This document shows, piece after piece, positions 16,149-63,246 of a DNA stretch of 64,000 nucleotides (position 1 is the stretch's first letter; every line of letters starts with the position of its first letter). A model generated the notes under the pieces. It did no database searches and was not told the origin of the DNA. It worked only from the letters and a program-made list of their open reading frames with translations. This DNA is from Bacilli bacterium (lineage in GTDB: Bacteria > Bacillota_I > Bacilli_A > RF39 > UBA660). Where the stretch lies: positions 38,980 to 102,979 of the forward strand of contig JAAVZT010000003.1 of NCBI GenBank assembly GCA_022791775.1, in the 5' to 3' direction. The position numbers and the translations under genes were made by a program.

Positions 16149-16798
16149 AAACAAAAGAAAAAATTGACTTACGTTCTTATGAAAAAAGATTATGGTTAGA
16201 AGGATTTGAATACATTGCAGGAGTAGATGAAGCAGGAAGAGGTCCATTGGTAGGACCAGTTGTTGCAGGAGCTGTTATTCTTCCTAAAAACTATGATTTA
16301 GAAGGATTGAATGATTCCAAACAATTAAGTGAAAAAAAAAGAGAAAAGTATTATGAAATAATTTTAAAAGATGCCATTGCATATGGAATCGGAATTGTGG
16401 ACGCAAAAACAATTGACGAAATAAACATTTATAACGCCAGTCGATTAGCTATGAATAAGGCCTTAGAAAATTTACAAATAAAACCCCAATATGTGCTTTC
16501 AGATGCCATGCCTTTATCCTTAGAAATTCCATCCGTTCCAATTATCCATGGGGATGCATTATCCATAAGTATTGCGGCCGGCAGTGTAATAGCGAAAGTG
16601 ACAAGAGACCGATTAATGGTGGAATTGGACAAATTACATCCAGAGTATGAATTTAAAAATCACAAAGGATATCCAACGAAAAGACATTTAGAATTACTAA
16701 AAAAATATGGGCCCTTAGATAATTATCGGTTTACATATAAGCCTGTTCGTGATTTAATGGGAAAAGAAGAAAGACAAAAGGAGGAAGAGAAACGTTGA
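16145..16798 (+). CDS. rnhB: ribonuclease HII
   Basis: AGVDEAGRGPLVGPVVAGAVIL is the canonical RNase HII motif. Confidence 0.9.
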   Translation: MKTKEKIDLRSYEKRLWLEGFEYIAGVDEAGRGPLVGPVVAGAVILPKNYDLEGLNDSKQLSEKKREKYYEIILKDAIAYGIGIVDAKTIDEINIYNASRLAMNKALENLQIKPQYVLSDAMPLSLEIPSVPIIHGDALSISIAAGSVIAKVTRDRLMVELDKLHPEYEFKNHKGYPTKRHLELLKKYGPLDNYRFTYKPVRDLMGKEERQKEEEKR

Positions 16799-25233: not shown

Positions 25234-25653
25234 ATGAAAGGTTATGTTTTAGATTATATTGATGAAAATGAATTTCGCAAATTAGAAAGAGCTTTAAAAA
25301 AGTATAATATGTTAGCTTTTAAAAAGCTAAACTTTGAATATTATCCAGCATTAAGAAGTGGACAATTTTTAGGAGAATTAGTTTCACAAAATAAGAAAAA
25401 TGGAACTGAAACTTATGAATTAAAACTTCCAAGTGACAAAATGTTTGCTCAAGTTCATGGAGAAGTAAAATTAGTATATACCGTTTATAAAAAAGAAGAG
25501 ACAGTAATGTTAGATAAGATTACACCTACAGATATTTTACTAGAAGGACATAAATCTGAACTTACTACTTATAAAGGTATCATGATTTCTAAAGCGAATG
25601 CTTCAAAAGATATTTTTAAAATAGATTTATTAAATCGATTACAAGAAAAATAA
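25234..25653 (+). CDS. hypothetical protein in a standalone transcription unit
   Basis: ORF with a GGGGG ribosome-binding site, its own consensus promoter and a strong terminator. The C-terminal region KLVYTVYKKEETVMLDKI..GHKSELTTYKG loosely resembles the RelE/ParE C-terminus. Not confirmed. Confidence 0.4.
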   Translation: MKGYVLDYIDENEFRKLERALKKYNMLAFKKLNFEYYPALRSGQFLGELVSQNKKNGTETYELKLPSDKMFAQVHGEVKLVYTVYKKEETVMLDKITPTDILLEGHKSELTTYKGIMISKANASKDIFKIDLLNRLQEK

Positions 25654-25685
25654 AAGCTATTAATAAAAAATTGCCAGTAATTTTA

Positions 25686-25720
25686 CTCCAATTGAGTTTT
25701 ATCCTCAATTGGAGTTTTAT
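25686..25720 (+). terminator. rho-independent terminator with a perfect 11-bp stem
   Basis: ctccaattgag / ctcaattggag inverted repeat followed by TTTTAT. Confidence 0.65.
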
Positions 25721-25922
25721 AATTTAAAGAACAATCTTAAGATCTGCAGATCATTTATAAACTCCCGTTATGCAATTATTTATATTCATAATGAAAAAGA
25801 AAAAACAATATTTTTCTTACATATAGGTTTTTTACAATTTATTATCCCAATTTGCATAATAATTAAAATAATTCTAGATTCTAATTTTAGTAAAATAGTC
25901 TTTAAATTTTAAGTTTATTAAT

Positions 25923-26063
25923 TATTTCTCTATATTTTAAAAAATCTTTATTTTCTTTATCAAAATGAATAGATTCATATATAGTTCTAAATTTACCATT
26001 ATTTTTTAATACTTTATATATTCTTTGGAATATTATCATTTAATCATCATAATAACTCTAAAC
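25923..26063 (-). pseudogene. remnant of a class I SAM-dependent methyltransferase gene (C-terminal fragment only)
   Basis: The minus-strand translation MIIFQRIYKVLKNNGKFRTIYESIHFDKEN... looks like a methyltransferase post-motif region (RVLKPGG-like). The upstream frames are broken by stops. Confidence 0.3.
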
Positions 26064-26140
26064 CATAACGACTGATTAAAATAGGAAAAGAGTTCGAGTT
26101 AATCAATCAATGGCCTAAAAAAGGACGTTCAACAACTTTT

Positions 26141-26737
26141 TTAAGAATATATATGTTCTATTCCTAATTCTTTGTATGTGTAGTATTTCTTTAAAATTTT
26201 CCCTATAACAATTATATTATCTTCTTGATAAGTTTCTAGGTGCTCAAGGTATTCGGAATCTAACAGTATTAATTCTCCATTTTTTTTCATTTGTAAAATA
26301 AATTTATTTGCTGGATCTATAATATACTTATTATTCAATAAGATTGCTTGATGGTTAGCTTTTTCGATTGCAGGATTTACTTTATACCAAAGTCCAGTTT
26401 CATTATCTACTAAAATGTATATTAAAGATGGATGAAAATTTAAAATACACAATAAATCATAAAGAAATTCTGCAGCATGTCTACAGCAACAAATACCATA
26501 CATAACTTGGACTCTTTGATTTATTTCTACAGGTAATCCCAAATAGTGGAAGTTATTATCAAAATTAATTGTTCTGTTTATGCTAAAAAAACCACTATGA
26601 AGCATGTGAAAAACTATTTTTGAATATTCTAATGCATCTTTCGCATCGTATTGTTGCAAATAATTTCTTAGATTAAGTAAAATTATTTTATAAGCATCTT
26701 TAATAACTTTCTTATCATCATCAGTAAAATTTAACAT
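26141..26737 (-). CDS. hypothetical protein with a Cys...His...Asp arrangement (possible papain/transglutaminase-like cysteine peptidase)
   Basis: YGICCCRHAAEF, later KANHQAILLNNKYIIDPAN. No TM segment. The fold assignment is an inference. Confidence 0.4.
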   Translation of the reverse strand: MLNFTDDDKKVIKDAYKIILLNLRNYLQQYDAKDALEYSKIVFHMLHSGFFSINRTINFDNNFHYLGLPVEINQRVQVMYGICCCRHAAEFLYDLLCILNFHPSLIYILVDNETGLWYKVNPAIEKANHQAILLNNKYIIDPANKFILQMKKNGELILLDSEYLEHLETYQEDNIIVIGKILKKYYTYKELGIEHIYS

Positions 26738-27032
26738 ATTAATATCTCCTTAAAAAAATTATTTATCACACGTTCATGGATGAGGCAATGTACAAGTGTG
26801 TTTACTAAATTGATATAATTTAGTAGAATGATTGTTTCAAGAATAATATTTGCAATAATATATTTGGAGCATTTAATATTAGGGGATTGCCAATTATACT
26901 ATTAATAAAAAAATCACCTAACTCAGCAAAGACTTAGGTGAAATCAAATATCTTGGCAGCAATCAACTCAGCAAAATGGAATGTTCCATTTTTGTTTTAT
27001 GCAAGTTCTATTGATGAATACATAATATCATA

Positions 27033-27064
27033 AAACGACTTTTTAACAAGTCGTTTCTTTTATA
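27033..27064 (+). terminator. rho-independent terminator (9-bp stem)
   Basis: aaacgactt / aagtcgttt stem, loop tttaac, then CTTTTAT. Confidence 0.5.
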
Positions 27065-27092
27065 CTCGAAAAATTCGCGTTTAATATCAATT

Positions 27093-27177
27093 TGGTGCAG
27101 GCGAAGGGACTTGAACCCCCATGGATCACTCCGCTAGATCCTAAGTCTAGTGCGTCTACCAATTTCGCCACGCCTGC
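27093..27177 (-). tRNA. tRNA-Leu (anticodon TAG)
   Basis: The reverse complement folds as a cloverleaf: GCAGGCG acceptor stem, anticodon loop CTTAGGA, long variable arm, encoded CCA. Confidence 0.85.
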
Positions 27178-27188
27178 ATATTTTAAAA

Positions 27189-27265
27189 TGGTGGACCTTG
27201 TAGGACTCGAACCTACGACCGACCGGTTATGAGCCGGTTGCTCTAACCAACTGAGCTAAAGGTCC
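27189..27265 (-). tRNA. tRNA with a CAT anticodon, probably tRNA-Ile2 (lysidine), possibly elongator Met
   Basis: Reverse complement GGACCTTTAGCTCAGTTGGTTAGAGC...CTCATAA...GGTTCGAGTCCTACAAGGTCCACCA. The acceptor C4/C5 resembles ileX-type tRNAs. Confidence 0.8.
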
Positions 27266-27390
27266 ATTGCTATTTAATGATAGCACAAAAAGAAATTGCA
27301 TGCAAGTAAAAGATAACACAGTTTTAAATCGAATCCAAATTAGAATTAAATTGATAATTTTGGGAACTATGATATAATAAATATCGATAA

Positions 27391-29103
27391 GTGAGTGATG
27401 AAGAAGTGAAAAATAATATTGTCAAAAAAATAAGTGTTATTTTAATAGGATTTTTAGCTTTTTTTGGAGTGAATCAAGTAAATGCAGGAATTAATTATTC
27501 AGATGGTTTAAAATGTGGTCCAGATAAAGTTGAATCAGATGGCAGAGTTTCGAAAACTTGTACATTAGGATTTACGGTTACAGAAAAAGATGCGAATTAT
27601 AACAAAATAACAGCCAAATTTACTTTGAAAAACGCAATTTTATCTAAATTTGAAGTAGAAAATGGTTGGAATATAAGCAATTCTAGCACAAATGCTTATA
27701 CATTAGAAACAGGTTCTCCTTCACTAAGTGTAGGTTATCACAAATTAGCAACCGTTGTATTTTATAAAGTAGATACAGCAGCAGAATGTACAATTACTTT
27801 TCAATATCAATTTGCTAAGATTAATCGTTCTTGTTCTATTTATCAAAATAATTATTATGGAAAAAATGGAACTATTGTAGATAAATTGACGTATCAAAAA
27901 GAATGTGAACGAAATGTTTGTACGATCCTATCTGATGGTACGAGATATGGAAAAAATGGAACCATCGTTGATGAACTAACGTACCAAAAAGAATGTGAAC
28001 AAAATGTTTGTAGGATTCTATCCGATGGCACAAGATATGGAAAAAATGGAACCATTGTAGATGAATTAACATACCAAAAAGAATGTGAACGAAATGTCTG
28101 TAAAATATTATCCGATGGTACAAGATATGGAAAAAATGGAACCATTGTTGATGAACTAACATACCAAAAAGAATGTGAGCGAAATGTCTGCAAGATATTA
28201 TCCGATGGCACCAGATATGGAAAAAATGGAACTATTGTAGATGAATTAACGTATCAAAAAGAGTGTGGAGAAAATGTCTGTAAAATATTACCAGATGGCA
28301 CCAGATATGGAAAAAATGGAACTATTGTAGATGAACTAACCTATCAAAAAGAATGTGAGCGAAATGTCTGTAGAATATTATCAGATGGGACCATCTATGG
28401 TAAAGATGGTATCATTGTCGATAAATTAACCTATCAAAAAGAATGTGAAACAAATATCTGTAAAGTATTACCAGATGGAACAAGATACGGAAAGAATGGA
28501 ACCATCGTGGATGAACTAACCTATCAAAAAGAATGTGAACGAAATGTCTGTAAAATCTTATCAGATGGTACGAGATATGGAAAAGATGGAATCATTGTGG
28601 ATGAGTTAACTTATCAAAAAGAATGTGAAAAAAATATTTGTAAAATCTTATCAGATGGGACTATTTATGGTCCAACTGGAAGCATTATTGATAAATTAAC
28701 ATACCAAAAAGAATGTGAAGAAAATTATTGTAGAATCTTAACCGATGGTACCATTTATGGAAAAGATGGACTAATTGTAGATCAAGAGACCTATGATAAA
28801 GATTGTAGTGAAAAACTTTACTGTGAAAAGATCGATGGAAATTATTATGGGAAAAATGGCGAAAAAGTATCAGAAGCGCAATATAAACTGGAATGTTTTA
28901 AACATTATTGTGAACAAATAGGAGACAAATACTTTGATAATCAAGGAAAAGAAGTTTCAAAAGCAGATTATCAAAAAGCCTGTTTAAACGAAATAGATAA
29001 TCCGCAAACTGGTTCTATGATTCCAGGTTTATACTTAGTAGCAGCAATCGCAATTGGAAGTGGCATGATCTATATTTCAAAAAAGAAAAATCGTTTCTTA
29101 TAA
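27391..29103 (+). CDS. cell-surface repeat protein: signal peptide, about eleven tandem 30-aa Cys-containing repeats and a C-terminal NPQTG cell-wall sorting signal
   Basis: Repeat unit YGKNGTIVDELTYQKECERNVCKILSDGTR. The C-terminus NPQTG + GSMIPGLYLVAAIAIGSGMIYI + SKKKNRFL is sortase-B-like (S. aureus NPQTN, B. anthracis NPKTG) followed by a hydrophobic segment and a basic tail. Confidence 0.7.
   Translation: MSDEEVKNNIVKKISVILIGFLAFFGVNQVNAGINYSDGLKCGPDKVESDGRVSKTCTLGFTVTEKDANYNKITAKFTLKNAILSKFEVENGWNISNSSTNAYTLETGSPSLSVGYHKLATVVFYKVDTAAECTITFQYQFAKINRSCSIYQNNYYGKNGTIVDKLTYQKECERNVCTILSDGTRYGKNGTIVDELTYQKECEQNVCRILSDGTRYGKNGTIVDELTYQKECERNVCKILSDGTRYGKNGTIVDELTYQKECERNVCKILSDGTRYGKNGTIVDELTYQKECGENVCKILPDGTRYGKNGTIVDELTYQKECERNVCRILSDGTIYGKDGIIVDKLTYQKECETNICKVLPDGTRYGKNGTIVDELTYQKECERNVCKILSDGTRYGKDGIIVDELTYQKECEKNICKILSDGTIYGPTGSIIDKLTYQKECEENYCRILTDGTIYGKDGLIVDQETYDKDCSEKLYCEKIDGNYYGKNGEKVSEAQYKLECFKHYCEQIGDKYFDNQGKEVSKADYQKACLNEIDNPQTGSMIPGLYLVAAIAIGSGMIYISKKKNRFL
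27856..28845 (+). repeat. tandem 90-bp coding repeats (about 11 copies, 85-95 % identical)
   Basis: The repeated DNA unit tatggaaaaaatggaac...gatggtacgaga is visible directly in the sequence. More degenerate copies continue to about 28990. Confidence 0.8.
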
Positions 29104-49486: not shown

Positions 49487-49535
49487 CTAGCTTTACGATT
49501 TCGAAAAGGTTTAGTATAATAAATAAGGTGAAGCA

Positions 49536-50684
49536 ATGAAAAAAATAACCTTAAAAAAAGACTATAGCATTAAGTTAAAGAGTCAAATAACAAAACATTT
49601 TATGCCGCAGTATGTTTACTTACCCATTCCAAAAGAAGATGAGTTATTCTCTAAAATACAAGTTAAAAAAGAAGAAAAAATTTCTAAATACTTGGTTTCT
49701 CCTGTATCAGGCAAAATTGTAGGTATAAAATATTGTCAAAATGCTTTAGGGGAAATTTTAAAATGTTTAACGATTTTAAATGATTATAAAGAAACTTACA
49801 TCAAACGGACATCAATTCGAAAAAATATTCAACAGTTAAGCCTAGAACAAATAGTGTTAGAATTAAAGGAATATCAATACCATGAAATCGCCGAGAAGCT
49901 TTGGCAGCAAAAAAATGCTAAAATACTTATTTTAAATGGAATCGAAGAAGAACCTTATGTTGCCAATGAAATTTTTTGTAATTTAACGAATCCAAGTATT
50001 ATGTTAGAGATGCTAGATGCTCTAAAAGAAATGAATACATATGAAGAAGTAAAAATAGTAATAAAAAATACAGATCGAGAAAATATTGAAGCATATCATA
50101 ACTTTTTAGGTACTTATCCAAATATGGAGCTTGTATTGGTACCCGATTTTTATCTCGTATCAGAATTCTTAGAGGATTATATGGAATTAAAAAAAGATTA
50201 TCTACTTCTTAAACCCAGTGAATTAAAAATAGCCTATAATGTTTTAAAACGTCGTCATTATCAAACCGAACACTTATTTACAATTAGCGGTGATGGCATT
50301 ACCAATCCCCAAATGATAGAAGCAAAATTGGGAAGTTCTGTTACGGAAATTATGCAAACATATATTCATTTCAAAAAAGAACCATTGAAAATATATATAA
50401 ATGGTATAATGAGAGGAAGAATAACTTCTCTAGAAAATATGATTGTAACTCCAGATCTGCAAGCTATTTTAATTATGAAAGAGTCAACAATTGAAGAAAA
50501 ACTTTGCATTAATTGCGGAAAATGCTATCAAGTTTGTCCCAAAGGATGTAATCCAAGAGCATATTTAGAAAATCGGAATAAAGAAGCCATAAAAAATTGT
50601 ATAGATTGTGGATTATGTTCTTATATATGTCCATCGTTTATTAACCTAAGAAAGGAAATGCAAGATGAAAAGAGAGAAGAATAA
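49536..50684 (+). CDS. RnfC-like protein (degenerate): N-terminal barrel-sandwich domain, ILILNGIEEEPY in place of the NGAECEPY motif, and two 4Fe-4S ferredoxin motifs at the C-terminus
   Basis: VSPVSGKIVGI resembles RnfC_N. CINCGKCYQVCP and CIDCGLCSYICP are two CxxCxxCxxxCP clusters. The Cys of the ECEP motif is replaced by Glu. Confidence 0.5.
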   Translation: MKKITLKKDYSIKLKSQITKHFMPQYVYLPIPKEDELFSKIQVKKEEKISKYLVSPVSGKIVGIKYCQNALGEILKCLTILNDYKETYIKRTSIRKNIQQLSLEQIVLELKEYQYHEIAEKLWQQKNAKILILNGIEEEPYVANEIFCNLTNPSIMLEMLDALKEMNTYEEVKIVIKNTDRENIEAYHNFLGTYPNMELVLVPDFYLVSEFLEDYMELKKDYLLLKPSELKIAYNVLKRRHYQTEHLFTISGDGITNPQMIEAKLGSSVTEIMQTYIHFKKEPLKIYINGIMRGRITSLENMIVTPDLQAILIMKESTIEEKLCINCGKCYQVCPKGCNPRAYLENRNKEAIKNCIDCGLCSYICPSFINLRKEMQDEKREE

Positions 50685-51627
50685 TCGGCCTTACTTAACC
50701 CAGTTTCAACCAAATGAATACCAAAAATATATAACCTATTCCTTAATCTTTTTGCTATGCTATGGTTTTTATAAAAATGGACTTTTACCAATCTTTCATC
50801 AGGACGCCAATATTTGGTATCTACTAAAATTAATGATTTATCCAATCGGAGGCTATCTTTTTGGAAAAATATCAGAAAAATATGGAAAAAATCAAAATGG
50901 CTTTTATGCATTTTACGGATTATTGATAGGAATGAGTATGCCCATTCAGCTAAATTGGTTGCTATTTCTTCTAATATTAGGAATATTATTTTGGCTTTTT
51001 CAAATCTTTTTAGCAAACATAAAATGGTTCAGTCCCTTATTACTAAGTAGAGGTATTTTTTCGCTTTTGATTGTGATAAACTCAGTATCTTTTTTAAATC
51101 CAAGCGAAGGAAATCAGGAAATGGTGTACACCACCTTAGACATATTTTTTGGTAGAAGTATTGGAGGAATTTATACTACAAGCATTTTTTGGCTTTTTAT
51201 TACTTTTTTAATTTTATGTTTTCATGATTTGTACAAAAAAGAAATCCCTGTTTTTGTTTTAATAACCTATATCATGAGTGCTTTATGCTTTGAAATTTTT
51301 CTTCCAACTGGAAATCTTCTTTTAACTATCTTAAATTCTTCCACCATTTTTGCAAGTATATTTCTAGCTTCGGAAATAGTCTCTGCACCCTATATAGATA
51401 AAAGTAAATGGACTTATGGAATACTAGTTGGTTTCTTTGGGTTTCTGTTTGTTCGCTTTATAAATGTCCAAGAAGGGATTTATTTAAGTCTAGCCTTATG
51501 TAGTTTTCTTCCTCCTTTATTGGATAAATGGTTTTATCATAGGCAAAAAAAGAGAAGTTTTGTCGATTCATCAAAGCCAAAAATACCTTTTGCAAAAAAT
51601 AACCTTCCAAAATTAAAAAAATCTTAA
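50665..51627 (+). CDS. RnfD/NqrB-like polytopic membrane protein (divergent)
   Basis: Position directly after the RnfC-like gene (overlapping by 20 nt). 8-10 TM helices. The FMN-attachment and Gly-rich RnfD motifs are not evident. Confidence 0.4.
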   Translation: MKREKNNRPYLTQFQPNEYQKYITYSLIFLLCYGFYKNGLLPIFHQDANIWYLLKLMIYPIGGYLFGKISEKYGKNQNGFYAFYGLLIGMSMPIQLNWLLFLLILGILFWLFQIFLANIKWFSPLLLSRGIFSLLIVINSVSFLNPSEGNQEMVYTTLDIFFGRSIGGIYTTSIFWLFITFLILCFHDLYKKEIPVFVLITYIMSALCFEIFLPTGNLLLTILNSSTIFASIFLASEIVSAPYIDKSKWTYGILVGFFGFLFVRFINVQEGIYLSLALCSFLPPLLDKWFYHRQKKRSFVDSSKPKIPFAKNNLPKLKKS

Positions 51628-51755
51628 ATAAATTTTCTTAAATCGTCAAAAAAAGGACTTTAATTTTATAAATTAGAGTCCTTTTTTCATGTCTTTACAA
51701 ATAAAAAAAACGATTTTATAGTATGACTGCGATTCGCAAATAGAAAGGAAAAATT

Positions 51756-53198
51756 ATGAAAAAGCTATTAAAATATCTCTTGTTGGGAGTTGGAATTTTT
51801 TTCATTGGGAAAGAAATAAGTTCTGCAGGAAGTGCTTTTTATTTAGAGCCAGCACCAAATGGATTAACCTATAAGATTAACAAAGGCTATAAAACAGTAA
51901 GACTTTATTTTCAAATGGTGCAAGATCGGATAACAAAAGAATATATTTATTGTTTAGAACCAGGGGTTCAGTTAAGTAATCAAACATATGAAGAATGGAA
52001 TGAATGGGATTACAATAAATTTAACTTAAGCAAAGAGCAAAAAGATTTTATTGTAAGAGTAGCATATTATGGTTATGGATATCAAAATCATACTAGCCTA
52101 GATTATTACTATGCAGCTCAATTATTAATATGGGAGAAAATTATTCCAAAAGATTGGGACATTTACTATACAACATCTTTAGACGGAGAACGCATTTTAC
52201 TTTATCAAAAAGAGCGAGAAGATATATTAACTTTAATTGAAAATGATCAAAAAAATTCTGCCTTTGAAAATCAAGTATTTGAGTGGAATGACAAAGAATC
52301 TCTTTATATAGAAGATCAAAATGGAGTGTTAAAAGATTATCGGCTTTTAACCAATTCAAGTTGGAAAATTACTCATAGCGGAAATTCGCTTCAAATTCAA
52401 AATACAAATTTACAAGAACAAGTTTTAGAATTTGAAAAAACATATGAAGGAGAACCTTTAAAATTTTATTGGCAAGAAGAAGGTCAAAAGGTATTAAAGC
52501 GAGGAAGTATCATTCCAAGACGATTTCGTATGACGCTAAAGCCGTTTCACATAAAGTTAGAAATAGATAAACAAAATGAAGAAAAAGAACCACTTGAAAA
52601 AGTTTTGTTTCACTTATATGCTAAGGAAGATATTAAAGATAAAGAAGAAAATATTCGTTTCCAAAAAAATGACAAAGTAGCAGAAGGTTGGACTGATCAA
52701 AACGGCAAAATAATTTTTGATAATTTATGGTCTGGAAATTACTACTTAAAAGAAATGGAATCTCCTAAGGATTACCAGTTATTAGAAGAAGACATACCAA
52801 TTACATTAGAAAAAGAATCAAAACATATCGTCATTCAAAATGAAAAAAAGAAACAAGATTTAATTCTTCAAAAAGTGGATAGCGATTCCAATGTTCCGTT
52901 GTCAAAAGTACGCTTTCAAATCAAAAATGCTCAAGAAGAGATCGTGTTTGATGGTCGAACAGACGAAAACGGGCAAATAATTTTAAAAGACCTACCAGTT
53001 GGAGATTATATAATTTTGGAAATAGAAACGATCGAAGATTACATCTTATTAAAAGAACCGCTTCGGATTACTTTGAACGGAGAAACATCGAAAACAGAAA
53101 TCAAAATTACTAATCGTAAAATAAAAAAAGTTCCAGATACCTACCAAAAAAGAATATGGATAGAATGGTTTTGGATTGATAGGAAAAGATACACATGA
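51756..53198 (+). CDS. secreted adhesin/pilin-like protein: signal peptide, putative thioester domain (YCLEP...AQLLIW), CnaB/SpaA-type domains and a C-terminal non-canonical sorting signal VPDTYQ + hydrophobic segment + DRKRYT
   Basis: CnaB signatures WTDQNGKIIFDNLWSGNYYLKEMESPKDY and TDENGQIILKDLPVGDYIILE. The C-terminal architecture mimics an LPXTG sorting signal. A sortase gene lies downstream. Confidence 0.6.
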   Translation: MKKLLKYLLLGVGIFFIGKEISSAGSAFYLEPAPNGLTYKINKGYKTVRLYFQMVQDRITKEYIYCLEPGVQLSNQTYEEWNEWDYNKFNLSKEQKDFIVRVAYYGYGYQNHTSLDYYYAAQLLIWEKIIPKDWDIYYTTSLDGERILLYQKEREDILTLIENDQKNSAFENQVFEWNDKESLYIEDQNGVLKDYRLLTNSSWKITHSGNSLQIQNTNLQEQVLEFEKTYEGEPLKFYWQEEGQKVLKRGSIIPRRFRMTLKPFHIKLEIDKQNEEKEPLEKVLFHLYAKEDIKDKEENIRFQKNDKVAEGWTDQNGKIIFDNLWSGNYYLKEMESPKDYQLLEEDIPITLEKESKHIVIQNEKKKQDLILQKVDSDSNVPLSKVRFQIKNAQEEIVFDGRTDENGQIILKDLPVGDYIILEIETIEDYILLKEPLRITLNGETSKTEIKITNRKIKKVPDTYQKRIWIEWFWIDRKRYT

Positions 53199-54169
53199 AA
53201 AAAAATTTATTAATCATCTTTTGTTTTCTTTTTCTCTTTTTAAAAAATACGAAAGCTAGCATGTTAAATTTTCATGTCACAGAATGGGTTCCAACTACTT
53301 ATCAAATAAATGATACATTAACTTCATTTCAAATTTATCAGAGCAATAATACAGAGCATTTTATGTATCAAGTAAGTCCTTTAGAAAAAATAAAATACCA
53401 AACAGATTATAAACAAAGTTCTCATTTAGAAGAAATGGATCGCACCGAATTAAATAAAATTAAATATTGGATTAGCGAGACCGAAAAATCAGAAGACATT
53501 AATGATAAATATTACTTTTATGTTAATATTCAACTTCTGATATGGAAACTCTTTCACCCCGACATTGAGGTGGAAATGGTAGGAAATAAAGAGTTGGTCG
53601 AAAAATATTATGATAAATTATTATTACTTCTTCCGAATCCACCAAATTGGGTACATGACTATGAAATGCAAGAAGAAATCATCTTAGAAGTCAGTGACCA
53701 ATATGAGATTATTTCAAATCAGTGTGAGGTAGAAAAAAACGAAAACCAAATCATTTTAACCAAATGTGAAGACAATGCCAAAATTGAAGTAAAAGAAAAA
53801 GGAGAAGATACCATCTTAGCGTTAGAAGATAAAACTGGAGAATTAAAAGTATTAGAAGGAGGAAATTTCCCTTGGACTTGGGAATTTCAGATCCTGCCTT
53901 CTAAACGGCCTGAAATTCCAGAAGAAAAGCCAAATCCTCCGATAAAAGAGGAAGAAGAAAAGCCAAATTCTCAACCGGAAGAGAAACCAGAGGACTCCAA
54001 TGACAATTTAAATTCGGATAAAATAGATAAGTCAGAAAATTTACCCAATCAATCAGAGTATGAAGAAGAAAAAAGAGTAATTACAAATGTTCCTAATACT
54101 TATCAAAGTTCTTTTGAAATTTTATGGCTCTTTCTCTTCCTCCTAGGAATTTATCAGTGGAAAAAATAA
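53195..54169 (+). CDS. paralogous secreted protein with a C-terminal VPNTYQ sorting-signal-like tail and a Pro/Glu-rich linker. It lacks the thioester Cys (YQVSP instead of YCLEP)
   Basis: Shares ...TYQIN..., ...QLLIW... and the C-terminal (K/N)VPxTYQ + hydrophobic segment + KK with the upstream gene. PEEKPNPPIKEEEEKPNSQPEEKPE is the stalk-like linker. Confidence 0.55.
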   Translation: MKKNLLIIFCFLFLFLKNTKASMLNFHVTEWVPTTYQINDTLTSFQIYQSNNTEHFMYQVSPLEKIKYQTDYKQSSHLEEMDRTELNKIKYWISETEKSEDINDKYYFYVNIQLLIWKLFHPDIEVEMVGNKELVEKYYDKLLLLLPNPPNWVHDYEMQEEIILEVSDQYEIISNQCEVEKNENQIILTKCEDNAKIEVKEKGEDTILALEDKTGELKVLEGGNFPWTWEFQILPSKRPEIPEEKPNPPIKEEEEKPNSQPEEKPEDSNDNLNSDKIDKSENLPNQSEYEEEKRVITNVPNTYQSSFEILWLFLFLLGIYQWKK

Positions 54170-54699
54170 AATATTTTCTGATCTTGCTTCTGATTTTTCT
54201 TTTATTTTGGGGATCAAGTATCAATTTCAGCAAAGAAATATTAAGAACTGAAACTCAGCAAAAAGACATGAATGAATATCTAAATCAAACGAATAATCAG
54301 CCTTTATTTGGAATTTTAGAAATCCCTAAAATTAATTTAAAACAACCCATTTATCCCAAAGATGACCCAAAAAATCAAGTGGATAAAAATATTACACTTT
54401 TAGAAGAAGACGTAACTCAAAATGTACCAAACCCAGTTATCATCCTGGCCTCTCATTCTGGAAATGGTCCATATGCATACTTTAAAAATTTGACATCCTT
54501 AAAAGAAGGAGATGCCATTTTTTTATGGCTAAAAAGCGAGCAAAAAGAATATCGGTTGATAAAGAAAGAAGAAGTAATGAAAAATGAAACCCTATATGTA
54601 AAAACATTTTCTTTTTCTCATTTAATTTTAATAACTTGTAGTAAAACAAATTCGAAAATTCAAGAGATATATTATGCCAAATATATTTCAAATAAATAA
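54124..54699 (+). CDS. srtA: sortase (class A-like transpeptidase). The probable start is the GTG at 54157
   Basis: Aligns by eye with S. aureus SrtA: GILEIPKINLKQPIYPK, LASHSG (His), FKNLTSLKEGDAIFL, LILITC (TLxTC catalytic Cys). N-terminal TM anchor KIKYFLILLLIFLLFW. AGGAA lies 9 nt before the GTG. Confidence 0.8.
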   Translation: MALSLPPRNLSVEKIKYFLILLLIFLLFWGSSINFSKEILRTETQQKDMNEYLNQTNNQPLFGILEIPKINLKQPIYPKDDPKNQVDKNITLLEEDVTQNVPNPVIILASHSGNGPYAYFKNLTSLKEGDAIFLWLKSEQKEYRLIKKEEVMKNETLYVKTFSFSHLILITCSKTNSKIQEIYYAKYISNK

Positions 54700-58907: not shown

Positions 58908-60530
58908 ATGAATATGAATCCAACCACTGTAGAATCTAATAATAAAAATCCTTTCAAATTGCCATCTTTAGGTCTATTTATTACCTTTAAAACTATTGTG
59001 GAATATGTTATCTTAATTATTCAATTTGCTTTTCGCGGCTTTAAATTTTTAACAATTGATTTATTCATGGCTCTTTATAACGCTCTAAGTGGAGGAGTCG
59101 ATCATGCCTATCAAAAAACAAAACATATCGTCACAAAGGATAATATTGCTCCATCTACAGCTCCTAAAAAAGAAAGCATTTTAAATGCAGATCTATCAAC
59201 ATTATTTAAAAATTCCTTTTTTATGAAAAAAAAATTAGCCAAATTAGAAGCTCAGAAAATAGCCTTAGCAGAAGAACTAAAAGGAAATGGAGCTATCCGT
59301 TCTAAAGAACCCAAAGTATTTAAATTTACTGCCAAAAACAAAAATGGTAAAATTGAATCAGGGGTAATTAGTGGGTTTAGTAAATTAGATGTTAATACGT
59401 TCTTAGTTCAAGAAGAATACGAAGTATATAATATTATATCAAACGAGTGGACCGAATTTATATATGGACAAACAAGCATCTTTACTCCAAAAATGAAAAC
59501 GAAAGACTTATTATTTTGGTTAACACAATTATCTACTTATATTAAAAGTGGAATTACTTTAACAGACTCAATTAAAATCTTAAATAACCAAATGGGCAAA
59601 AACAAAAATTATAAAAGAGCTTTTCAGTCAATTGTTTACGAGTTAACCATGGGGGAATCATTCTCGAAAGCTTTAGAAAAACAAGGTGTCATGTTTCCAG
59701 CCTTACTCATCAATATGATTAAAGCTGCAGAGGCAACTGGTGAATTAGAAGAAACGTTGAGTGATATGGCCAATTATTACGATGAAATTGATAAAACCCA
59801 TAAACAAATGATCAGTGCAATTACCTATCCATCTGTTATTTTAGTATTTTCCATTGCAGTTATTACATTTATCTTAGTTTTTATCATTCCGCAATTTGTT
59901 GAAATTTATAAAGAATCTGAAGTAGAAATAAATGGTTTAACCTTATTTATTATCCATATGAGTGATTTCTTGAAAGAAAATATAGGATTTTTATTGATCA
60001 TTGCTATAGCGAGCATTGCAGTATTAATCTTTTCTTATCAAAAAGTAAAAGCATTTCGAAAAAGTATGCAAACTTTTTTAATGCATGTTCCCGTTTTTGG
60101 CAAAATTATGATATATAATGAAATGGCTGTTTTTGCCAAAACATTTTCTTCCTTATTACGAAATAATGTATTTATTACCGAAAGTATTGATATTTTGAGT
60201 AAGATTACAAATAATGAGATTTATAAAGAAATTATGTATAATACCATTAATAATATTGTAAAAGGGGAAAAAATAAGCGAAGCCTTTAAAAACCAATGGG
60301 CTGTTCCAGAAGTGGCATATTATATGATCGTAACAGGAGAATCAACTGGGCAATTAGCAGAAATGATGAGCAAAGTTAGTAGCTATTACCAAGAAATGCA
60401 TCGTAGTATTATTTCCAGCTTAAAAGCCTTCATAGAACCAGTATTGATTACCTTTCTTGCTGTAATTGTCGGAGGAATCATTTTAGCTGTTATTGTACCA
60501 ATGTTTAATTTAATGAACCAATTTGGGTAG
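58908..60530 (+). CDS. comGB: type II secretion / type IV pilus / competence platform protein (GspF/PilC/ComGB family) with a roughly 130-aa N-terminal extension
   Basis: Two T2SSF domains starting near FKFTAKNKNGKIESGVISGFS. GGGAGG ribosome-binding site before the ATG at 58908. Confidence 0.75.
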   Translation: MNMNPTTVESNNKNPFKLPSLGLFITFKTIVEYVILIIQFAFRGFKFLTIDLFMALYNALSGGVDHAYQKTKHIVTKDNIAPSTAPKKESILNADLSTLFKNSFFMKKKLAKLEAQKIALAEELKGNGAIRSKEPKVFKFTAKNKNGKIESGVISGFSKLDVNTFLVQEEYEVYNIISNEWTEFIYGQTSIFTPKMKTKDLLFWLTQLSTYIKSGITLTDSIKILNNQMGKNKNYKRAFQSIVYELTMGESFSKALEKQGVMFPALLINMIKAAEATGELEETLSDMANYYDEIDKTHKQMISAITYPSVILVFSIAVITFILVFIIPQFVEIYKESEVEINGLTLFIIHMSDFLKENIGFLLIIAIASIAVLIFSYQKVKAFRKSMQTFLMHVPVFGKIMIYNEMAVFAKTFSSLLRNNVFITESIDILSKITNNEIYKEIMYNTINNIVKGEKISEAFKNQWAVPEVAYYMIVTGESTGQLAEMMSKVSSYYQEMHRSIISSLKAFIEPVLITFLAVIVGGIILAVIVPMFNLMNQFG

Positions 60531-60538
60531 GGGGATTT

Positions 60539-61306
60539 ATGAATTATTTGAATACAACATTCTTTATCATAATTGGAGCCATTTTAGGTTCCTTTTATGC
60601 TGTAATTGGGACAAGACTTCCCAAAAACGAATCTATTATATCACCGAGAAGTCACTGTGAATATTGTGGACATATATTATCTTGGTATGAGTTGATCCCA
60701 ATTCTTTCCTTTTTCTTCCAAAAAGGAAAATGCAGAAACTGTCATCATCATTTATCATCTATGTATCCATTAACAGAATTGGCAACAGGACTATTATTTG
60801 GAATATCCTATTATTATTTTGGAATATCTGAGAAATTTTTTCATTTGCTTCTTTTATCTAGCCTAGTCATAATTATATTTGTTAGTGATATGAAATATAT
60901 GATTATACTTGATTCGCCTTTAGTAATAAGTGGAATTGGAATCTTTTTATTAAATATTAGTTTCCATGGCATAGAAAAAGCGTTATTAAGTTTAGGAGCG
61001 GGATTTCTTTCCTTTTTGACCCTTTTTTTTATTGGAAAATTAGGAAACATTTTATTTCAAAAAGAAGCGATGGGTGGGGGAGATATAAAACTATCTTTTA
61101 TTATGGGAATGAGTTTAGGATACAAAATGTATTTAATTGCATTTATCTTAGCGACTTTCTTAGCCTTACCTTATGCGTTAGGATGTCTATTTTTCCAAAA
61201 AGATCATGAAGTTCCTTTTGGACCTTTTTTAGTATCTTCATTATGGATTGTCTTTTTCTTCTATGAAAAATTTCATTATATTATAACTTTTTTATTAAAC
61301 CTTTAA
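60539..61306 (+). CDS. comC: prepilin peptidase (A24 family; PilD/ComC)
   Basis: N-terminal CxxC...CxxC zinc motif (CEYCGH...CRNCHH), 8 TM helices, and the catalytic Asp region GGGDIKL. Confidence 0.85.
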   Translation: MNYLNTTFFIIIGAILGSFYAVIGTRLPKNESIISPRSHCEYCGHILSWYELIPILSFFFQKGKCRNCHHHLSSMYPLTELATGLLFGISYYYFGISEKFFHLLLLSSLVIIIFVSDMKYMIILDSPLVISGIGIFLLNISFHGIEKALLSLGAGFLSFLTLFFIGKLGNILFQKEAMGGGDIKLSFIMGMSLGYKMYLIAFILATFLALPYALGCLFFQKDHEVPFGPFLVSSLWIVFFFYEKFHYIITFLLNL

Positions 61307-61338
61307 CGAATTCAAAACAATATGATATACTAAAGAAG

Positions 61339-61848
61339 GTGAGAAGTATGTTAGATTGGCTAACTAAAGAATTAGCTTGCATAGGATTTATTGGAAGCAT
61401 TATAGTATTTCTTCTATGCTTTCCATGGATTAAAAAAATATACAAACATTATGAAGAAATTATGAATTACTTAATCGTGGGGGTTTTAACAACCATTGTT
61501 AGCTTAGTAATTTATTATGGACTTGTATTTACGATATTAAATCCAAACAAAGCCTTAGAGTTACAAATTGCTAATATAATATCCTGGATCGGGGCAGTTT
61601 TATTTGCGTATATTACCAATCGGCGCTATGTATTTAAAAGTCAGAATAAAGAAACAAAAAAAGAATTTTGTTCCTTTTTTGGCTCTCGATTATTAACCTT
61701 AGGACTAGATATGGGAATTATGTTTTTAGGTGTAACCATATGTCATCAAAGTGATAAAAGTATGAAATTGCTCTCACAAATATTAGTAATTATAGGCAAT
61801 TATATTTTAAGTAAATTATTTGTATTTAAAAAGAAAACGGAAAAGTAA
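61339..61848 (+). CDS. GtrA-family membrane protein
   Basis: 4 TM helices. NRRYVF and the GNYILSKLFVF C-terminus are typical of GtrA. Confidence 0.65.
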   Translation: MRSMLDWLTKELACIGFIGSIIVFLLCFPWIKKIYKHYEEIMNYLIVGVLTTIVSLVIYYGLVFTILNPNKALELQIANIISWIGAVLFAYITNRRYVFKSQNKETKKEFCSFFGSRLLTLGLDMGIMFLGVTICHQSDKSMKLLSQILVIIGNYILSKLFVFKKKTEK

Positions 61849-61857
61849 TTTCCGTTT

Positions 61858-63246
61858 TTAAATGTCTAACGTTTCTAAAGCCGTTTCTTCACTGCTAGGT
61901 TCTACTTCTAAACTTTTTTTACCAAAAATAGCATCTTTAATTGCACTATCATGTTCTCCTAAGTCATCATCCACATCAATAACTCGTAATACTTCTTCGA
62001 AACTAGTAAGACCCTCTAAAACTTTATAAAGCCCGTCTTGTAAAATAGAAATCATATCTTGATTTTCATAAATCAAATGTCTCAAGTCTTCCTTTTTCAT
62101 ATTATTTACAATAGCATCTCGTAAATCTTGATTAATAATTAATACTTCATGTAAGGCTACTCGGCCATGATACCCATGATAACATTCGTTACAGCCCACA
62201 GGTGTATAAATATCAGTAATATCCATATTGAGTGCACTTTTAAAAACTTTTTGCTCATAAGGAGTTGCTTTTCGACTACTTCTACATTTTGGACACAATT
62301 TTTTACATAATCGTTGGGAAATAATACCTTCTAGGGCACTTCCTAATAAATATCGTTCTACATCCATATCGACAAGTCGTTCAATTGTATTTAGAGAGTT
62401 ATTTGTATGAATAGTAGATAAAACTAAGTGTCCAGTAATAGAAGCTCGAACGGCAATCCGGGCTGTTTCATTATCACGAATTTCTCCGATCATAATTACA
62501 TCGGGATCTTGACGAAGAATGCTTCGTAAAGCGCTCGCAAAGGTTAAACCAATTTCACTCATCGTTTGGACCTGATTGACTCCATTTAATTTCATTTCGA
62601 CTGGATCTTCAACAGTAATTACGTTGCGACTAATCGTATTTAATCGTTGTAAGATCGTATAAACTGTAGTAGACTTACCTGTCCCAGTGGCTCCAGTTAC
62701 TAATATAATTCCATTCGGCTTAGAAATCACTTTTAAGAGTTTTTCATAATTTGCTTCGGAAAATCCCAAAGTTTCCAAACCGCCAAGACTCATGGAATAA
62801 TCTAAAATACGGATAACCACTTTTTCTCCATACACAGTTGGCAGGGAACTGACACGCAAATCCAAATTAAGACCATCTACATTACTGCGAATCGCCCCAT
62901 CTTGAGGAAGACGAGATTCTGTAATATTCATTCCAGAAATAATTTTAATGCGAGTAATCAAATTCTTTTTTACAGCCATGGGTACTTCTGCATATTGAAT
63001 GAGTTCTCCATCAACTCGAATTCGCACAATTAAATTCCCAGGGGTTTGATCAAAATGAATATCACTTGCTTTTCGTCGCGCTGCATCAATTATCATATCA
63101 TTTACAATATCTACAATTGGCATATTGTCATAATCGTAATTCTTTAACACAAAATCACCAGTTCCTTTTATTCTTTCACTTATTATACAAAAAAAACCTT
63201 CAAAGAACAAGTTATAATCATAGATTTCAGATTCAAAATACGACAA
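61858..63246 (-). CDS. comGA: type II/IV secretion ATPase (GspE/PilB/ComGA family)
   Basis: Walker A VTGATGTGKSTT, Asp box, Walker B VIMIGEIRD, His box, and a C-terminal tetracysteine CxxC...CxxC. Confidence 0.85.
   Translation of the reverse strand: MSYFESEIYDYNLFFEGFFCIISERIKGTGDFVLKNYDYDNMPIVDIVNDMIIDAARRKASDIHFDQTPGNLIVRIRVDGELIQYAEVPMAVKKNLITRIKIISGMNITESRLPQDGAIRSNVDGLNLDLRVSSLPTVYGEKVVIRILDYSMSLGGLETLGFSEANYEKLLKVISKPNGIILVTGATGTGKSTTVYTILQRLNTISRNVITVEDPVEMKLNGVNQVQTMSEIGLTFASALRSILRQDPDVIMIGEIRDNETARIAVRASITGHLVLSTIHTNNSLNTIERLVDMDVERYLLGSALEGIISQRLCKKLCPKCRSSRKATPYEQKVFKSALNMDITDIYTPVGCNECYHGYHGRVALHEVLIINQDLRDAIVNNMKKEDLRHLIYENQDMISILQDGLYKVLEGLTSFEEVLRVIDVDDDLGEHDSAIKDAIFGKKSLEVEPSSEETALETLDI

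What the first reader, a model, noticed from the sequence alone, without database searches (positions are those of the whole stretch)
49536..51627. Orphan, degenerate RnfC/RnfD-like gene pair directly upstream of the sortase locus
The first protein is RnfC-like: a barrel-sandwich N-domain and two intact CxxCxxCxxxCP ferredoxin motifs. Its NGAECEPY-type motif reads NGIEEEPY, so the Cys is lost.

The overlapping downstream gene is a polytopic membrane protein of RnfD/NqrB size. It lacks obvious flavin-attachment motifs.

No rnfG/E/A/B genes follow. A two-gene Rnf remnant that keeps the Fe-S clusters but has altered nucleotide/flavin motifs could be a repurposed redox or structural module. It might even be functionally linked to the neighbouring surface-protein locus.
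Basis: partly seen in the sequence, partly recalled or inferred. Interest (0 to 1): 0.55.

Follow-up and report, generated by a model that had tools for sequence, protein, structure and literature searches.

The report
Stand-alone flavin-less RnfC/RnfD gene pair
Two overlapping genes encode cut-down relatives of the RnfC and RnfD subunits of a bacterial membrane redox pump; they keep the iron-sulfur sites, have lost the NADH and flavin sites, are conserved without the other four pump subunits across many uncultured gut Bacilli, and show no dependence on the neighbouring sortase genes.

Summary
ORF 49536-50684 has the full RnfC fold with two intact CxxCxxCxxxCP motifs. ORF 50665-51627 overlaps it by 20 nt, has the RnfD/NqrB fold, and lacks the [S/T]GAT flavinylation threonine.

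- **No other Rnf genes nearby.** No rnfG/E/A/B lies in the 64-kb window, or within 10 kb in 88 related loci.
- **Not a decaying remnant.** Relatives occur in 544 species-level genomes. In 88 of 89 loci examined the RnfD-like gene directly follows the RnfC-like gene, usually with overlapping stop and start. Both Fe-S motifs are intact in 89/89. dN/dS is about 0.07-0.29. At least three lineages carry C::D fusion proteins. The lost motifs are replaced by new family-specific conserved residues.
- **Sortase link not supported.** The pilin-sortase cassette is a variable insert between rnfD' and dnaG. It is absent in 11 of 65 loci that have dnaG downstream and in all other contexts. In the window a terminator-like hairpin and a promoter-like site separate it from the pair.

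The best reading is a stand-alone two-subunit membrane Fe-S module derived from Rnf, with unknown redox partners. It is a new variant of a known kind, of moderate interest.

The parts
49492..49520 (+). Promoter-like site (TTTACG-17-TATAAT) in the 49-nt gap between uvrC and rnfC'
   Evidence: Consensus scan, 10 of 12 matches. This is a consensus match only; such sites are not enriched over shuffled sequence.
49536..50684 (+). rnfC' : RnfC-fold cytoplasmic protein of 382 aa with two [4Fe-4S] motifs and no NADH/FMN site
   Evidence: TM 0.85 to RnfC 9eri_C. TIGR01945 scores 110 bits, below its 246 cut-off.
49587..49781 (+). N-terminal barrel-sandwich hybrid domain (residues about 18-82, with the SPVSGK motif)
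   Evidence: Beta strands in the AF2 model. Weak RnfC_N match, E=0.01. S58 and G59 are invariant in the family.
49866..49916 (+). Position where canonical RnfC carries the Gly-rich FMN/NADH loop (GxGGAGFPT); here it is deleted or replaced (EYQYHEIAEKLWQQKN)
   Evidence: Alignment with canonical RnfC. The loop is absent from every member of the clade surveyed.
49935..49958 (+). NGIEEEPY, the altered counterpart of NGAECEPY (Cys lost, acidic residues gained)
   Evidence: Family variants are xG(I/M)(D/E)(D/E)EPY.
50505..50540 (+). First CxxCxxCxxxCP motif (CINCGKCYQVCP)
   Evidence: Intact in 89 of 89 loci.
50598..50633 (+). Second CxxCxxCxxxCP motif (CIDCGLCSYICP)
   Evidence: Intact in 89 of 89 loci and in 122 of 123 full-length database representatives.
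50665..51627 (+). rnfD' : polytopic membrane protein of 320 aa with the RnfD/NqrB fold and no flavinylation threonine; its start overlaps the end of rnfC' by 20 nt
   Evidence: PF03116 at 85 bits. Profile match to 7zc6_D at E=3e-39. AF2 pLDDT 88.3. Foldseek TM 0.65-0.73.
51085..51114 (+). Segment that replaces the [S/T]GAT FMN-attachment motif (VSFLNPSEGN); N145 and E148 are nearly invariant in the family
   Evidence: [ST]GAT is present in 0 of 83 RnfD' sequences.
51232..51249 (+). Family-specific conserved loop YKKEIP (K191 invariant in 38 of 38)
51649..51687 (+). Terminator-like hairpin plus T-run, 22 nt after the rnfD' stop codon
   Evidence: Comparable hairpins follow rnfD' in 42 of 80 related loci (no shuffled control).
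51694..51722 (+). Promoter-like site (TTTACA-17-TATAGT) ahead of the pilin gene; marks the start of the neighbouring, separate surface-protein unit
51756..54699 (+). Neighbouring variable cassette, not part of the module: SpaA/TED surface protein (51756-53198), 324-aa VPNTYQ-signal protein (53195-54169) and sortase (54124-54699)
   Evidence: Presence and absence across loci.

Best explanation
rnfC'-rnfD' is a self-contained two-gene operon whose genes are translationally coupled. It encodes a two-subunit membrane complex descended from the RnfC and RnfD subunits of a Firmicute-type Rnf pump, and it no longer works as Rnf.

**Shown.**
- RnfC' keeps the whole RnfC fold and both [4Fe-4S] binding motifs. 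It has lost the Gly-rich loop and the Cys-containing motif of the NADH/FMN site.
- RnfD' keeps the RnfD/NqrB ten-helix scaffold. It has lost the threonine that carries covalent FMN. Across the family it does not conserve the Asp that flanks riboflavin and Na+ in canonical RnfD.
- The pair is conserved, under purifying selection, sometimes fused into one polypeptide, and never accompanied in cis by rnfG/E/A/B.

**Inferred.**
- RnfC' docks on the cytoplasmic face of RnfD', as RnfC docks on RnfD and NqrA on NqrB.
- Its two Fe-S clusters exchange single electrons with a soluble low-potential carrier of the ferredoxin or flavodoxin type, not with NAD(H).
- RnfD' either tethers this Fe-S relay to the membrane or passes the electron or redox signal on through a remodelled site. 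That site is marked by new invariant residues (YKN near TM1, N145/E148 where the FMN site was, K191).
- It cannot pump ions in the Rnf manner, because the RnfA/E/G machinery and the flavins are missing.
- It behaves as a housekeeping module of this lineage. The adjacent pilin-sortase cassette is an unrelated, variable insertion.
For: **Homology and fold.**

**Motif loss and retention.**
- Alignments.
- 89 of 89 RnfC-like proteins keep both Fe-S motifs. The G-loop occurs only in the outlying L007 and L009 and in canonical L008. No RnfD' (0 of 83) has [ST]GAT.
- Of 123 full-length database representatives, 115 have two Fe-S motifs and no G-loop.
- New conserved residues in RnfD' are listed.

**Conservation.**
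- 544 species-level genomes carry relatives.
- C' is directly followed by D' in 88 of 89 loci, and no rnfG/E/A/B lies within 10 kb.
- Stop and start overlap by 4-20 nt in most loci.
- dN/dS is 0.07-0.12 for C' and 0.08-0.29 for D' at dS 0.16-0.5.

**Fusions.** P0178/P0319, P0186 and P0230 are C'::D' fusions. P0178/P0319 and P0230 were each seen on two contigs.

**Descent.** The closest canonical relatives sit in full rnf operons (L090, L091, L008). The G-loop-less clade is monophyletic in an NJ tree.

**Separate transcription signals in the window.**

**Cofactor roles of canonical RnfC and RnfD.** PMC12174285 and PMC9588780.
Against: - No experiment or expression data exists, and the electron donor and acceptor are unknown.
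- Only 64 kb of this genome and +/-10 kb of related loci could be inspected. rnfGEAB, apbE or an FMN_bind partner elsewhere in the genome cannot be excluded.
- The canonical riboflavin-flanking Asp is replaced by hydrophobic residues in about half of the family. Electron transfer through RnfD' is therefore doubtful, and RnfD' may be only an anchor or may have a non-redox role.
- One fused member (P0230) has lost two Cys of the second Fe-S motif.
- The promoter and terminator calls are consensus matches only.
- Complex formation is inferred from homology, gene overlap and fusions. It was not modelled.
Confidence: 0.55

Rival explanations
1. The pair is a non-redox or redox-sensing membrane module. 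RnfD' belongs structurally to the Amt/urea-transporter superfamily and has lost its flavin sites, so it may act as a channel or transporter. RnfC' would then be a cytoplasmic regulatory cap whose Fe-S clusters sense redox state or oxygen, or are purely structural, much as cofactor-less NqrA sits on NqrB.
For: - Foldseek hits after RnfD/NqrB are urea and ammonium transporters. The relationship is stated in PMC12174285.
- The flavinylation Thr is lost, and the canonical Asp248 position is variable across the family.
- New invariant polar residues N145, E148 and K191 have appeared.
- NqrA is a precedent for an RnfC homologue without catalytic cofactors.
- P0230 tolerates loss of one Fe-S motif.
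Against: - Both Fe-S motifs are otherwise almost universally kept. That fits an electron relay at least as well as a sensor.
- No substrate can be named.
- No transporter-type genomic context was seen.
Confidence: 0.2
2. The pair is part of a split Rnf complex. It assembles with rnfG/E/A/B, and possibly apbE, encoded elsewhere in the genome, and still works as a ferredoxin-dependent ion pump.
For: - Only the window and +/-10 kb of related loci could be searched.
- The family grades into canonical operons such as L090 at 32% identity.
Against: - RnfC' has no NADH/FMN site and RnfD' has no FMN threonine, so the canonical electron path FMN(G) to FMN(D) to riboflavin to Fe-S to FMN(C) to NAD+ is broken at both ends.
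- None of 88 loci has rnfG/E/A/B nearby, whereas the canonical operons seen here are contiguous.
- A survey of Tenericutes-like lineages reports Rnf preserved only in Izemoplasmatales and a wastewater group (10.1101/2020.01.21.914887).
Confidence: 0.1
3. The pair is functionally coupled to the neighbouring surface-protein and sortase locus, or more generally to surface filaments. It might, for example, supply or remove electrons for pilin maturation or extracellular electron transfer.
For: - A VPxT-signal surface protein plus a small sortase follows rnfD' in roughly 37 of 65 loci of the uvrC-dnaG type.
- In other lineages, secreted proteins or type IV pilin-like genes lie next to, or even between, rnfC and rnfD (L007, L006, L065, nfo-type loci).
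Against: - The whole region is syntenic, so adjacency is inherited and not independent evidence.
- dnaG follows rnfD' directly in 11 of 65 loci and in the fused L092.
- About 8 further loci have only a short ORF there.
- The nfo-type and other contexts have no sortase.
- A terminator-like hairpin and a separate promoter-like site lie between the pair and the pilin gene.
- No flavin-binding or cytochrome partner was found.
Confidence: 0.07
4. The pair is a decaying remnant (pseudo-paralog) of an ancestral rnf operon with no function.
For: - The catalytic NADH/FMN and flavinylation motifs are lost.
- Scores fall below the NCBIfam cut-offs.
Against: - The reading frames are intact and overlap in 88 of 89 loci.
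- The Cys motifs are invariant.
- dN/dS is 0.07-0.29.
- 100 clusters at 50% identity reach E<=1e-30.
- New family-specific conserved residues have arisen.
- The AF2 models are confident.

Supporting calls: 28, 36, 48, 49, 51, 60, 73, 84.
Confidence: 0.03

Closest known systems
RnfC and RnfD subunits of the Rnf (RnfABCDGE) ferredoxin:NAD+ oxidoreductase, Firmicute type (C. tetanomorphum 7ZC6, A. woodii 9ERI)
   Same: - The folds match over the full length: TM 0.85 for C and 0.65-0.7 for D. A family profile matches 7zc6_D at E=3e-39.
- RnfC' has the N-terminal barrel-sandwich, Rossmann-like and SLBB domains, plus a C-terminal 2x[4Fe-4S] ferredoxin domain with both Cys motifs.
- The gene order is C then D, with the two genes translationally coupled.

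Supporting calls: 15, 19, 53, 54, 58.
   Different: - There are no rnfG/E/A/B genes.
- RnfC' lacks the Gly-rich loop and the Cys of NGAECEPY, which form the FMN/NADH site.
- RnfD' lacks the [S/T]GAT threonine for covalent FMN, and the riboflavin/Na+ Asp is not conserved.
- Both proteins score far below the TIGR01945 and TIGR01946 cut-offs.
- Some lineages fuse C' and D' into one protein.

Supporting calls: 4, 20, 26-28, 48, 73-78, 84.
NqrA/NqrB of Na+-NQR
   Same: - NqrA is an RnfC homologue that has lost the NADH/FMN function and sits on NqrB as a peripheral cytoplasmic subunit.
- RnfC' looks like an intermediate on the same kind of path (Foldseek TM 0.63 to NqrA).
- NqrB is among the top fold and sequence matches for RnfD'.
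   Different: - NqrA has no cofactors at all, whereas RnfC' keeps both Fe-S motifs.
- NqrB keeps the covalent FMN (Thr236) and riboflavin, and has N-terminal helices forming a quinone site that RnfD' lacks.
- nqrC-F are absent here.

Supporting calls: 56, 58.
Two-subunit Nqr/Rnf-like complexes (NqrB/RnfD-like plus NqrC/RnfG-like) described in 10.1101/2024.03.13.584918
   Same: - It is a reduced Rnf/Nqr derivative built around an RnfD-like membrane subunit.
- Its own flavinylation threonine is not conserved.
   Different: - The partner there is an extracytosolic, flavinylated RnfG-like protein.
- Here the partner is a cytoplasmic RnfC-like Fe-S protein.
- No FMN_bind or ApbE gene was found in the window or the related loci.
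Soluble RnfC-like proteins (PrdC of proline reductase, PduS-type)
   Same: They share the Complex1_51K/SLBB/2x[4Fe-4S] architecture and are used outside the Rnf complex.
   Different: - These keep a nucleotide/flavin site and are not paired with an RnfD-like membrane protein.
- TIGR04481 PrdC scores 16 bits against a cut-off of 490.
- The PduS comparison rests on general knowledge and was not tested here.

Membership tests
Rnf complex (RnfABCDGE) | Six subunit genes rnfC, D, G, E, A, B present, normally as one operon | tested here: not met
   No RnfG/E/A/B by tblastn in the 64-kb window or within 10 kb in 88 related loci. No PF02508, PF04205 or PF04060 in the window. The rest of the genome could not be searched.
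Rnf complex (RnfABCDGE) | RnfC binds FMN and NADH (Gly-rich GxGGAGFPT loop and NGAECEPY motif) | tested here: not met
   The loop is deleted and the motif reads NGIEEEPY. Binding was not measured.
Rnf complex (RnfABCDGE) | RnfC carries two [4Fe-4S] clusters (2x CxxCxxCxxxCP) | tested here: met
   Both motifs are intact in the window and in 89 of 89 loci.
Rnf complex (RnfABCDGE) | RnfC family model score (TIGR01945, cut-off 245.95 bits) | tested here: not met
   110.1 bits. The fold is nevertheless RnfC, TM 0.85.
Rnf complex (RnfABCDGE) | RnfD carries FMN covalently on the Thr of a [S/T]GAT motif | tested here: not met
   No such motif in the window protein or in any of 83 RnfD' sequences. Canonical T153 aligns to a variable position.
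Rnf complex (RnfABCDGE) | RnfD has the strictly conserved Asp (D248 in C. tetanomorphum) flanking riboflavin and the proposed Na+ site | tested here: inconclusive
   It is Glu in the window. Across the family it is D in 14, I/L/F in 17 and E in 3 of 38. Riboflavin binding itself cannot be tested here.
Rnf complex (RnfABCDGE) | RnfD/NqrB membrane fold (PF03116; TIGR01946 cut-off 207 bits) | tested here: met
   PF03116 scores 85 bits against a cut-off of 27.7. Foldseek gives TM 0.65-0.73. The equivalog-level model TIGR01946 scores only 39.9 bits.
Na+-NQR (NqrA/NqrB) | NqrA without cofactors; NqrB with the FMN threonine and N-terminal quinone-site helices; nqrC-F present | tested here: not met
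   Fe-S motifs are present in the A-like subunit. The NqrB models score 44-51 bits against cut-offs of 350-414 and match only the C-terminal half. No nqrC-F genes were found.
Nqr/Rnf-like two-subunit complex (RnfD-like plus RnfG-like) | An adjacent flavinylated FMN_bind (RnfG/NqrC-like) partner and ApbE | tested here: not met
   No FMN_bind homologue in the window or loci. No ApbE domain in the window.
Sortase-dependent pilus/surface-protein locus | The gene is consistently co-inherited and co-transcribed with the sortase and its substrates | tested here: not met
   The cassette is absent from 11 of 65 uvrC-dnaG-type loci and from all other contexts. Terminator-like and promoter-like sites lie between the two units. 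Transcription was not measured.

The most novel reading that the evidence does not exclude
RnfC'D' is a previously undescribed minimal membrane redox device. It has two subunits, or a single polypeptide in some lineages, and probably no flavin. It may be a ferredoxin-linked Fe-S relay that hands electrons to or across the membrane through a remodelled RnfD scaffold, or a channel of Amt/urea-transporter ancestry gated by redox state. It would be a core housekeeping function of a large clade of uncultured, reduced-genome gut Bacilli, and a living intermediate on the RnfC to NqrA path of cofactor loss.
Probability: 0.35. Interest if true: 0.7.

Novelty: new variant of a known kind. Interest (0 to 1): 0.5.

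Why it matters
Rnf and Nqr are treated as obligate six-subunit pumps whose membrane electron path runs through flavins. This pair shows that the C and D subunits persist on their own, under selection, in hundreds of species after losing the NADH, FMN and covalent-flavin sites while keeping the Fe-S clusters.

- **Annotation.** These genes are currently labelled 'RnfC', 'RnfD' or '4Fe-4S dicluster protein'. In metabolic reconstructions of gut Bacilli (RF39-like and Erysipelotrichales-like MAGs) they could be miscounted as evidence for an Rnf pump.
- **Evolution.** RnfC' gives a natural intermediate for how RnfC became the cofactor-less NqrA.
- **Function.** The pair points to an uncharacterised membrane Fe-S function in abundant, uncultured gut bacteria.

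It does not bear on sortase biology.

Tried and rejected
- **Sortase link.** I tested it by surveying 89 loci. The cassette is variable, so I rejected it as a dependency.
- **DNA-repair link.** uvrC lies upstream in 67 loci, and an nfo-like gene overlaps the rnfC' start in 7. I considered this but attribute it to inherited synteny. The window order rnhC-cvpA-trxA-uvrC and dnaG-sigA-trmK matches Bacillus-type order as I remember it; this was not tested.
- **Type IV pilin link.** N_methyl genes lie within 3 genes of the pair in only 8 of 87 loci. I recorded it as an observation, not an explanation.
- **Flavin-based extracellular electron transfer.** No FMN_bind or ApbE gene was found in the window, and the riboflavin-flanking Asp is not conserved. 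I kept this only inside the novel case.
- **Literature.** Searches for an RnfC/RnfD-only module found no description. The nearest is the RnfD-like plus RnfG-like complex.
- **Technical dead ends.**
I redid it with database homologues.
  - The afdb50 fold library was unavailable.
  - Cluster look-ups gave almost no organism names.
  - My first G-loop regex was too strict and mislabelled some canonical RnfC. I corrected it.
  - The minus-strand ORF 50621-51016 inside rnfD' was not examined and is probably spurious.
Full report
**Setting.** The window has about 29% G+C and consists of housekeeping genes. They include rimM, trmD, rplS, topA, smc, comEA, comEC, holA, rnhC, cvpA, trxA, uvrC, dnaG, sigA, trmK and the type IV pilus genes pilC, pilD and pilB. 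The closest public relatives are uncultured gut MAGs labelled Bacilli, 'Tenericutes', Erysipelotrichaceae or Candidatus Caccenecus.

**Observation: RnfC'.** ORF 49536-50684 (382 aa) matches 4Fe-4S dicluster families. It matches Complex1_51K at 31.4 bits, just above the 31.2 cut-off, and RnfC_N weakly. Its best NCBIfam hit is TIGR01945 rnfC at 110 bits, far below the 246-bit cut-off.
- By sequence, the best solved structures are the RnfC chains 7zc6_C, 9eri_C and 8ahx_C.
- An AF2 model (pLDDT 91.5) superposes on those chains over its full length at TM 0.83-0.85. NqrA comes next at about 0.63, followed by NuoF-type proteins.
- The alignment with canonical RnfC shows a further and more telling change. 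The Gly-rich GxGGAGFPT loop of the FMN/NADH site is deleted.

**Observation: RnfD'.** ORF 50665-51627 (320 aa) overlaps the first gene by 20 nt.
- It matches PF03116 at 85 bits.
- A profile of the family matches RnfD 7zc6_D end to end at E=3e-39.
- Its AF2 model (pLDDT 88.3) matches RnfD and NqrB at TM 0.65-0.73.
- The flavinylation motif is absent. Canonical L008 RnfD reads DGVTGATPL, and the window protein reads FLNPSEGNQ.

**Observation: missing subunits.** No RnfG, E, A or B homologue lies anywhere in the 64-kb window.

**The pair is a conserved unit, not an orphan relic.**
- A word-indexed search found 168 homologues of RnfC' down to about 25% identity.
- A scan of one genome per species found 544 genomes with a relative. 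The best 80 were fetched with 10-kb flanks.
- Across 89 loci, the RnfD-like gene directly follows the RnfC-like gene in 88. The exception, L007, has a pilin-like gene between the two. None has rnfG/E/A/B nearby.
- The C' stop and D' start overlap by 4-20 nt in most loci.
- All 89 RnfC-like proteins keep both Fe-S motifs.
- The Gly-rich loop survives only in two outlying pair-only loci from spore-formers (L007, L009) and in canonical operons. None of 83 RnfD' proteins has [S/T]GAT.
- An exhaustive search of 1.84 billion cluster representatives gave 100 clusters at E<=1e-30. Of 123 full-length top hits, 115 have two Fe-S motifs and no G-loop.
- Nei-Gojobori dN/dS for unsaturated pairs (dS 0.16-0.5) is 0.07-0.12 for rnfC' and 0.08-0.29 for rnfD'.
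- The lost motifs are replaced by new family-specific conserved residues, not by noise. In RnfC' these are xG(I/M)(D/E)(D/E)EPY, LGTYP and VPDxY. In RnfD' they are Y36-K37-N38, N145, E148, G163, K191 and G256.

**Fusions.** Four representatives are much longer than the rest. I compared three of them with RnfD', and all three are RnfC'::RnfD' fusions.
- P0178 has a sister, P0319, on a second contig.
- P0186 is a single representative.
- P0230 was seen on two contigs. In L092 it sits directly between uvrC and dnaG.

The fusions, the gene overlap and the known RnfC-RnfD and NqrA-NqrB contacts (PMC12174285) together support a physical complex.

**Origin.** The nearest canonical relatives lie in complete operons.
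- L090 (32% identity) reads rnfC, rnfD fused to an FMN_bind domain, rnfE, rnfA and a short rnfB.
- L091 and L008 are also complete operons.
- In a neighbour-joining tree the G-loop-less proteins form one clade. It is sister to a group holding L007, L009 and L090.
- Loss of the NADH/FMN site therefore appears to have happened once. The pair-only arrangement is at least as old as that loss.

**Context and the sortase hypothesis.** In the main clade the order is uvrC, rnfC', rnfD', a variable insert, then dnaG and sigA.
- Of 65 loci with dnaG downstream, 11 have dnaG immediately after rnfD'.
- About 37 carry a surface protein with a VPxT-type sorting signal plus a small sortase.
- The rest carry other inserts or only a short ORF.
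- A second clade places the pair after an AP-endonuclease-2 (nfo-like) gene that overlaps the rnfC' start. There it is followed by a TM2/zinc-ribbon protein, ftsW/rodA and frr, with no sortase.
- Other loci show other neighbours (L006, L009, L056, L065).
- In the window, a promoter-like site precedes rnfC' at 49492-49520. A strong terminator-like hairpin follows rnfD' at 51649-51687. A second promoter-like site precedes the pilin gene at 51694-51722.
- Hairpin-plus-T-run structures follow rnfD' in 42 of 80 loci (no shuffled control).

The pair is therefore constant and the pilin-sortase cassette is optional. The data give no support for a functional dependency. Because the whole region is syntenic, adjacency alone carries little weight.

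**Mechanism.** In canonical Rnf, electrons pass from FMN of RnfG to covalent FMN of RnfD, then to riboflavin of RnfD, then to the two [4Fe-4S] clusters of RnfC, then to FMN of RnfC and finally to NAD+ (PMC12174285, PMC9588780).
- In this pair both ends of the path are missing. RnfC' has no FMN/NADH site. RnfD' has no covalent-FMN site.
- The Asp that flanks riboflavin (D248 in C. tetanomorphum) is Glu in the window. In about half of the family it is replaced by hydrophobic residues.
- What remains is a cytoplasmic two-cluster Fe-S protein on an RnfD-fold membrane protein.
- I infer a membrane-anchored one-electron relay that talks to a ferredoxin-type carrier rather than NAD(H). The partner on the membrane side is unknown.
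- The main rival is a redox-sensing or regulatory cap on a channel-like RnfD', since the RnfD/NqrB fold is related to Amt and urea transporters.
- A split Rnf with rnfGEAB elsewhere cannot be excluded with these tools. It is unlikely given the missing cofactor sites. A published survey also finds Rnf retained only in Izemoplasmatales and a wastewater group among Tenericutes-like lineages.

**Comparison with known systems.** The pair is homologous to RnfC and RnfD but fails the defining cofactor and subunit-composition tests of Rnf.
- It resembles the NqrA/NqrB situation, in which an RnfC homologue has lost its catalytic site, but it keeps Fe-S clusters.
- It parallels the RnfD-like plus RnfG-like two-subunit complexes, in which the RnfD-like threonine is also lost (10.1101/2024.03.13.584918). 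The partner subunit differs, however.
- I found no paper describing an RnfC/RnfD-only module. Those searches cover open-access literature only.

**Verdict.** The feature is real and correctly observed. The sortase link is not supported. It is a new variant of a known kind, of moderate interest.

Noticed in passing
Proteins P0178/P0319, P0186, P0230; locus L092:8001-10118: Natural single-polypeptide RnfC'::RnfD' fusions of 667-705 aa occur in at least three lineages. P0230 sits directly between uvrC and dnaG and has lost two Cys of its second Fe-S motif.
   Followed up: partly
window 53150-53198 and 54070-54169; related loci: The sortase substrates carry non-LPXTG sorting signals. The 480-aa SpaA/TED protein has VPDTYQ followed by a short, poorly hydrophobic tail. 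The 324-aa protein has VPNTYQ plus a TM segment plus KK. Relatives use VPxTG or VPxT[FNK]. The small sortase scores below the class-specific NCBIfam cut-offs.
   Followed up: partly
L007:9435-10463; L058, L064, L066, L068, L082, L087 (1.5-3.5 kb upstream of rnfC'); L084:12635-13129; window 58908-63246: Type IV pilin-like (N_methyl) genes lie within three genes of the pair in 8 of 87 loci, in three different arrangements. In one case (L007) the gene lies between rnfC and rnfD. The window has pilC, prepilin peptidase and pilB about 7 kb downstream. This may be inherited synteny.
   Followed up: partly
L006:10296-11744; L065:12436-14562 and 15280-16446; L007:9435-10463: Secreted or pilin-like proteins next to the pair share a C-terminal '(G)VRPV(I/F)(S/T)...GxG....PY' tail and have no Pfam match. 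Their family is unidentified.
   Followed up: no
L090:9280-10713 and 12044-12307; L091:1351-3885: The closest canonical rnf operons are themselves unusual. One has RnfD fused to an FMN_bind (RnfG) domain and an 87-aa RnfB with only the FeS domain. Another has an 844-aa RnfD.
   Followed up: no
L058, L064, L066, L068, L074, L082, L087 (gene just upstream of rnfC'): In a second clade, an AP-endonuclease-2 (nfo-like) gene ends 4 nt inside the rnfC' start or within a few nt before it. In the main clade uvrC sits 20-60 nt upstream. A DNA-repair nuclease therefore precedes the pair in both contexts. I read this as synteny, but it was not tested.
   Followed up: no
window 1156-1662 (-): A SpoIIIAH-like gene is present in this genome. 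L007 and L009 carry CotE, CotZ and SpoVA genes, so parts of the wider lineage are, or were, spore-formers.
   Followed up: no
window 2645-5129: A peptidase-C39 ABC exporter (bacteriocin-type) is followed by a 144-aa ORF with no Pfam match.
   Followed up: no
window 25234-29103: Three ORFs of 139, 198 and 570 aa have no Pfam match at E<=1e-6. They sit in a stretch with sparser long ORFs (about 24.9-27.4 kb).
   Followed up: no
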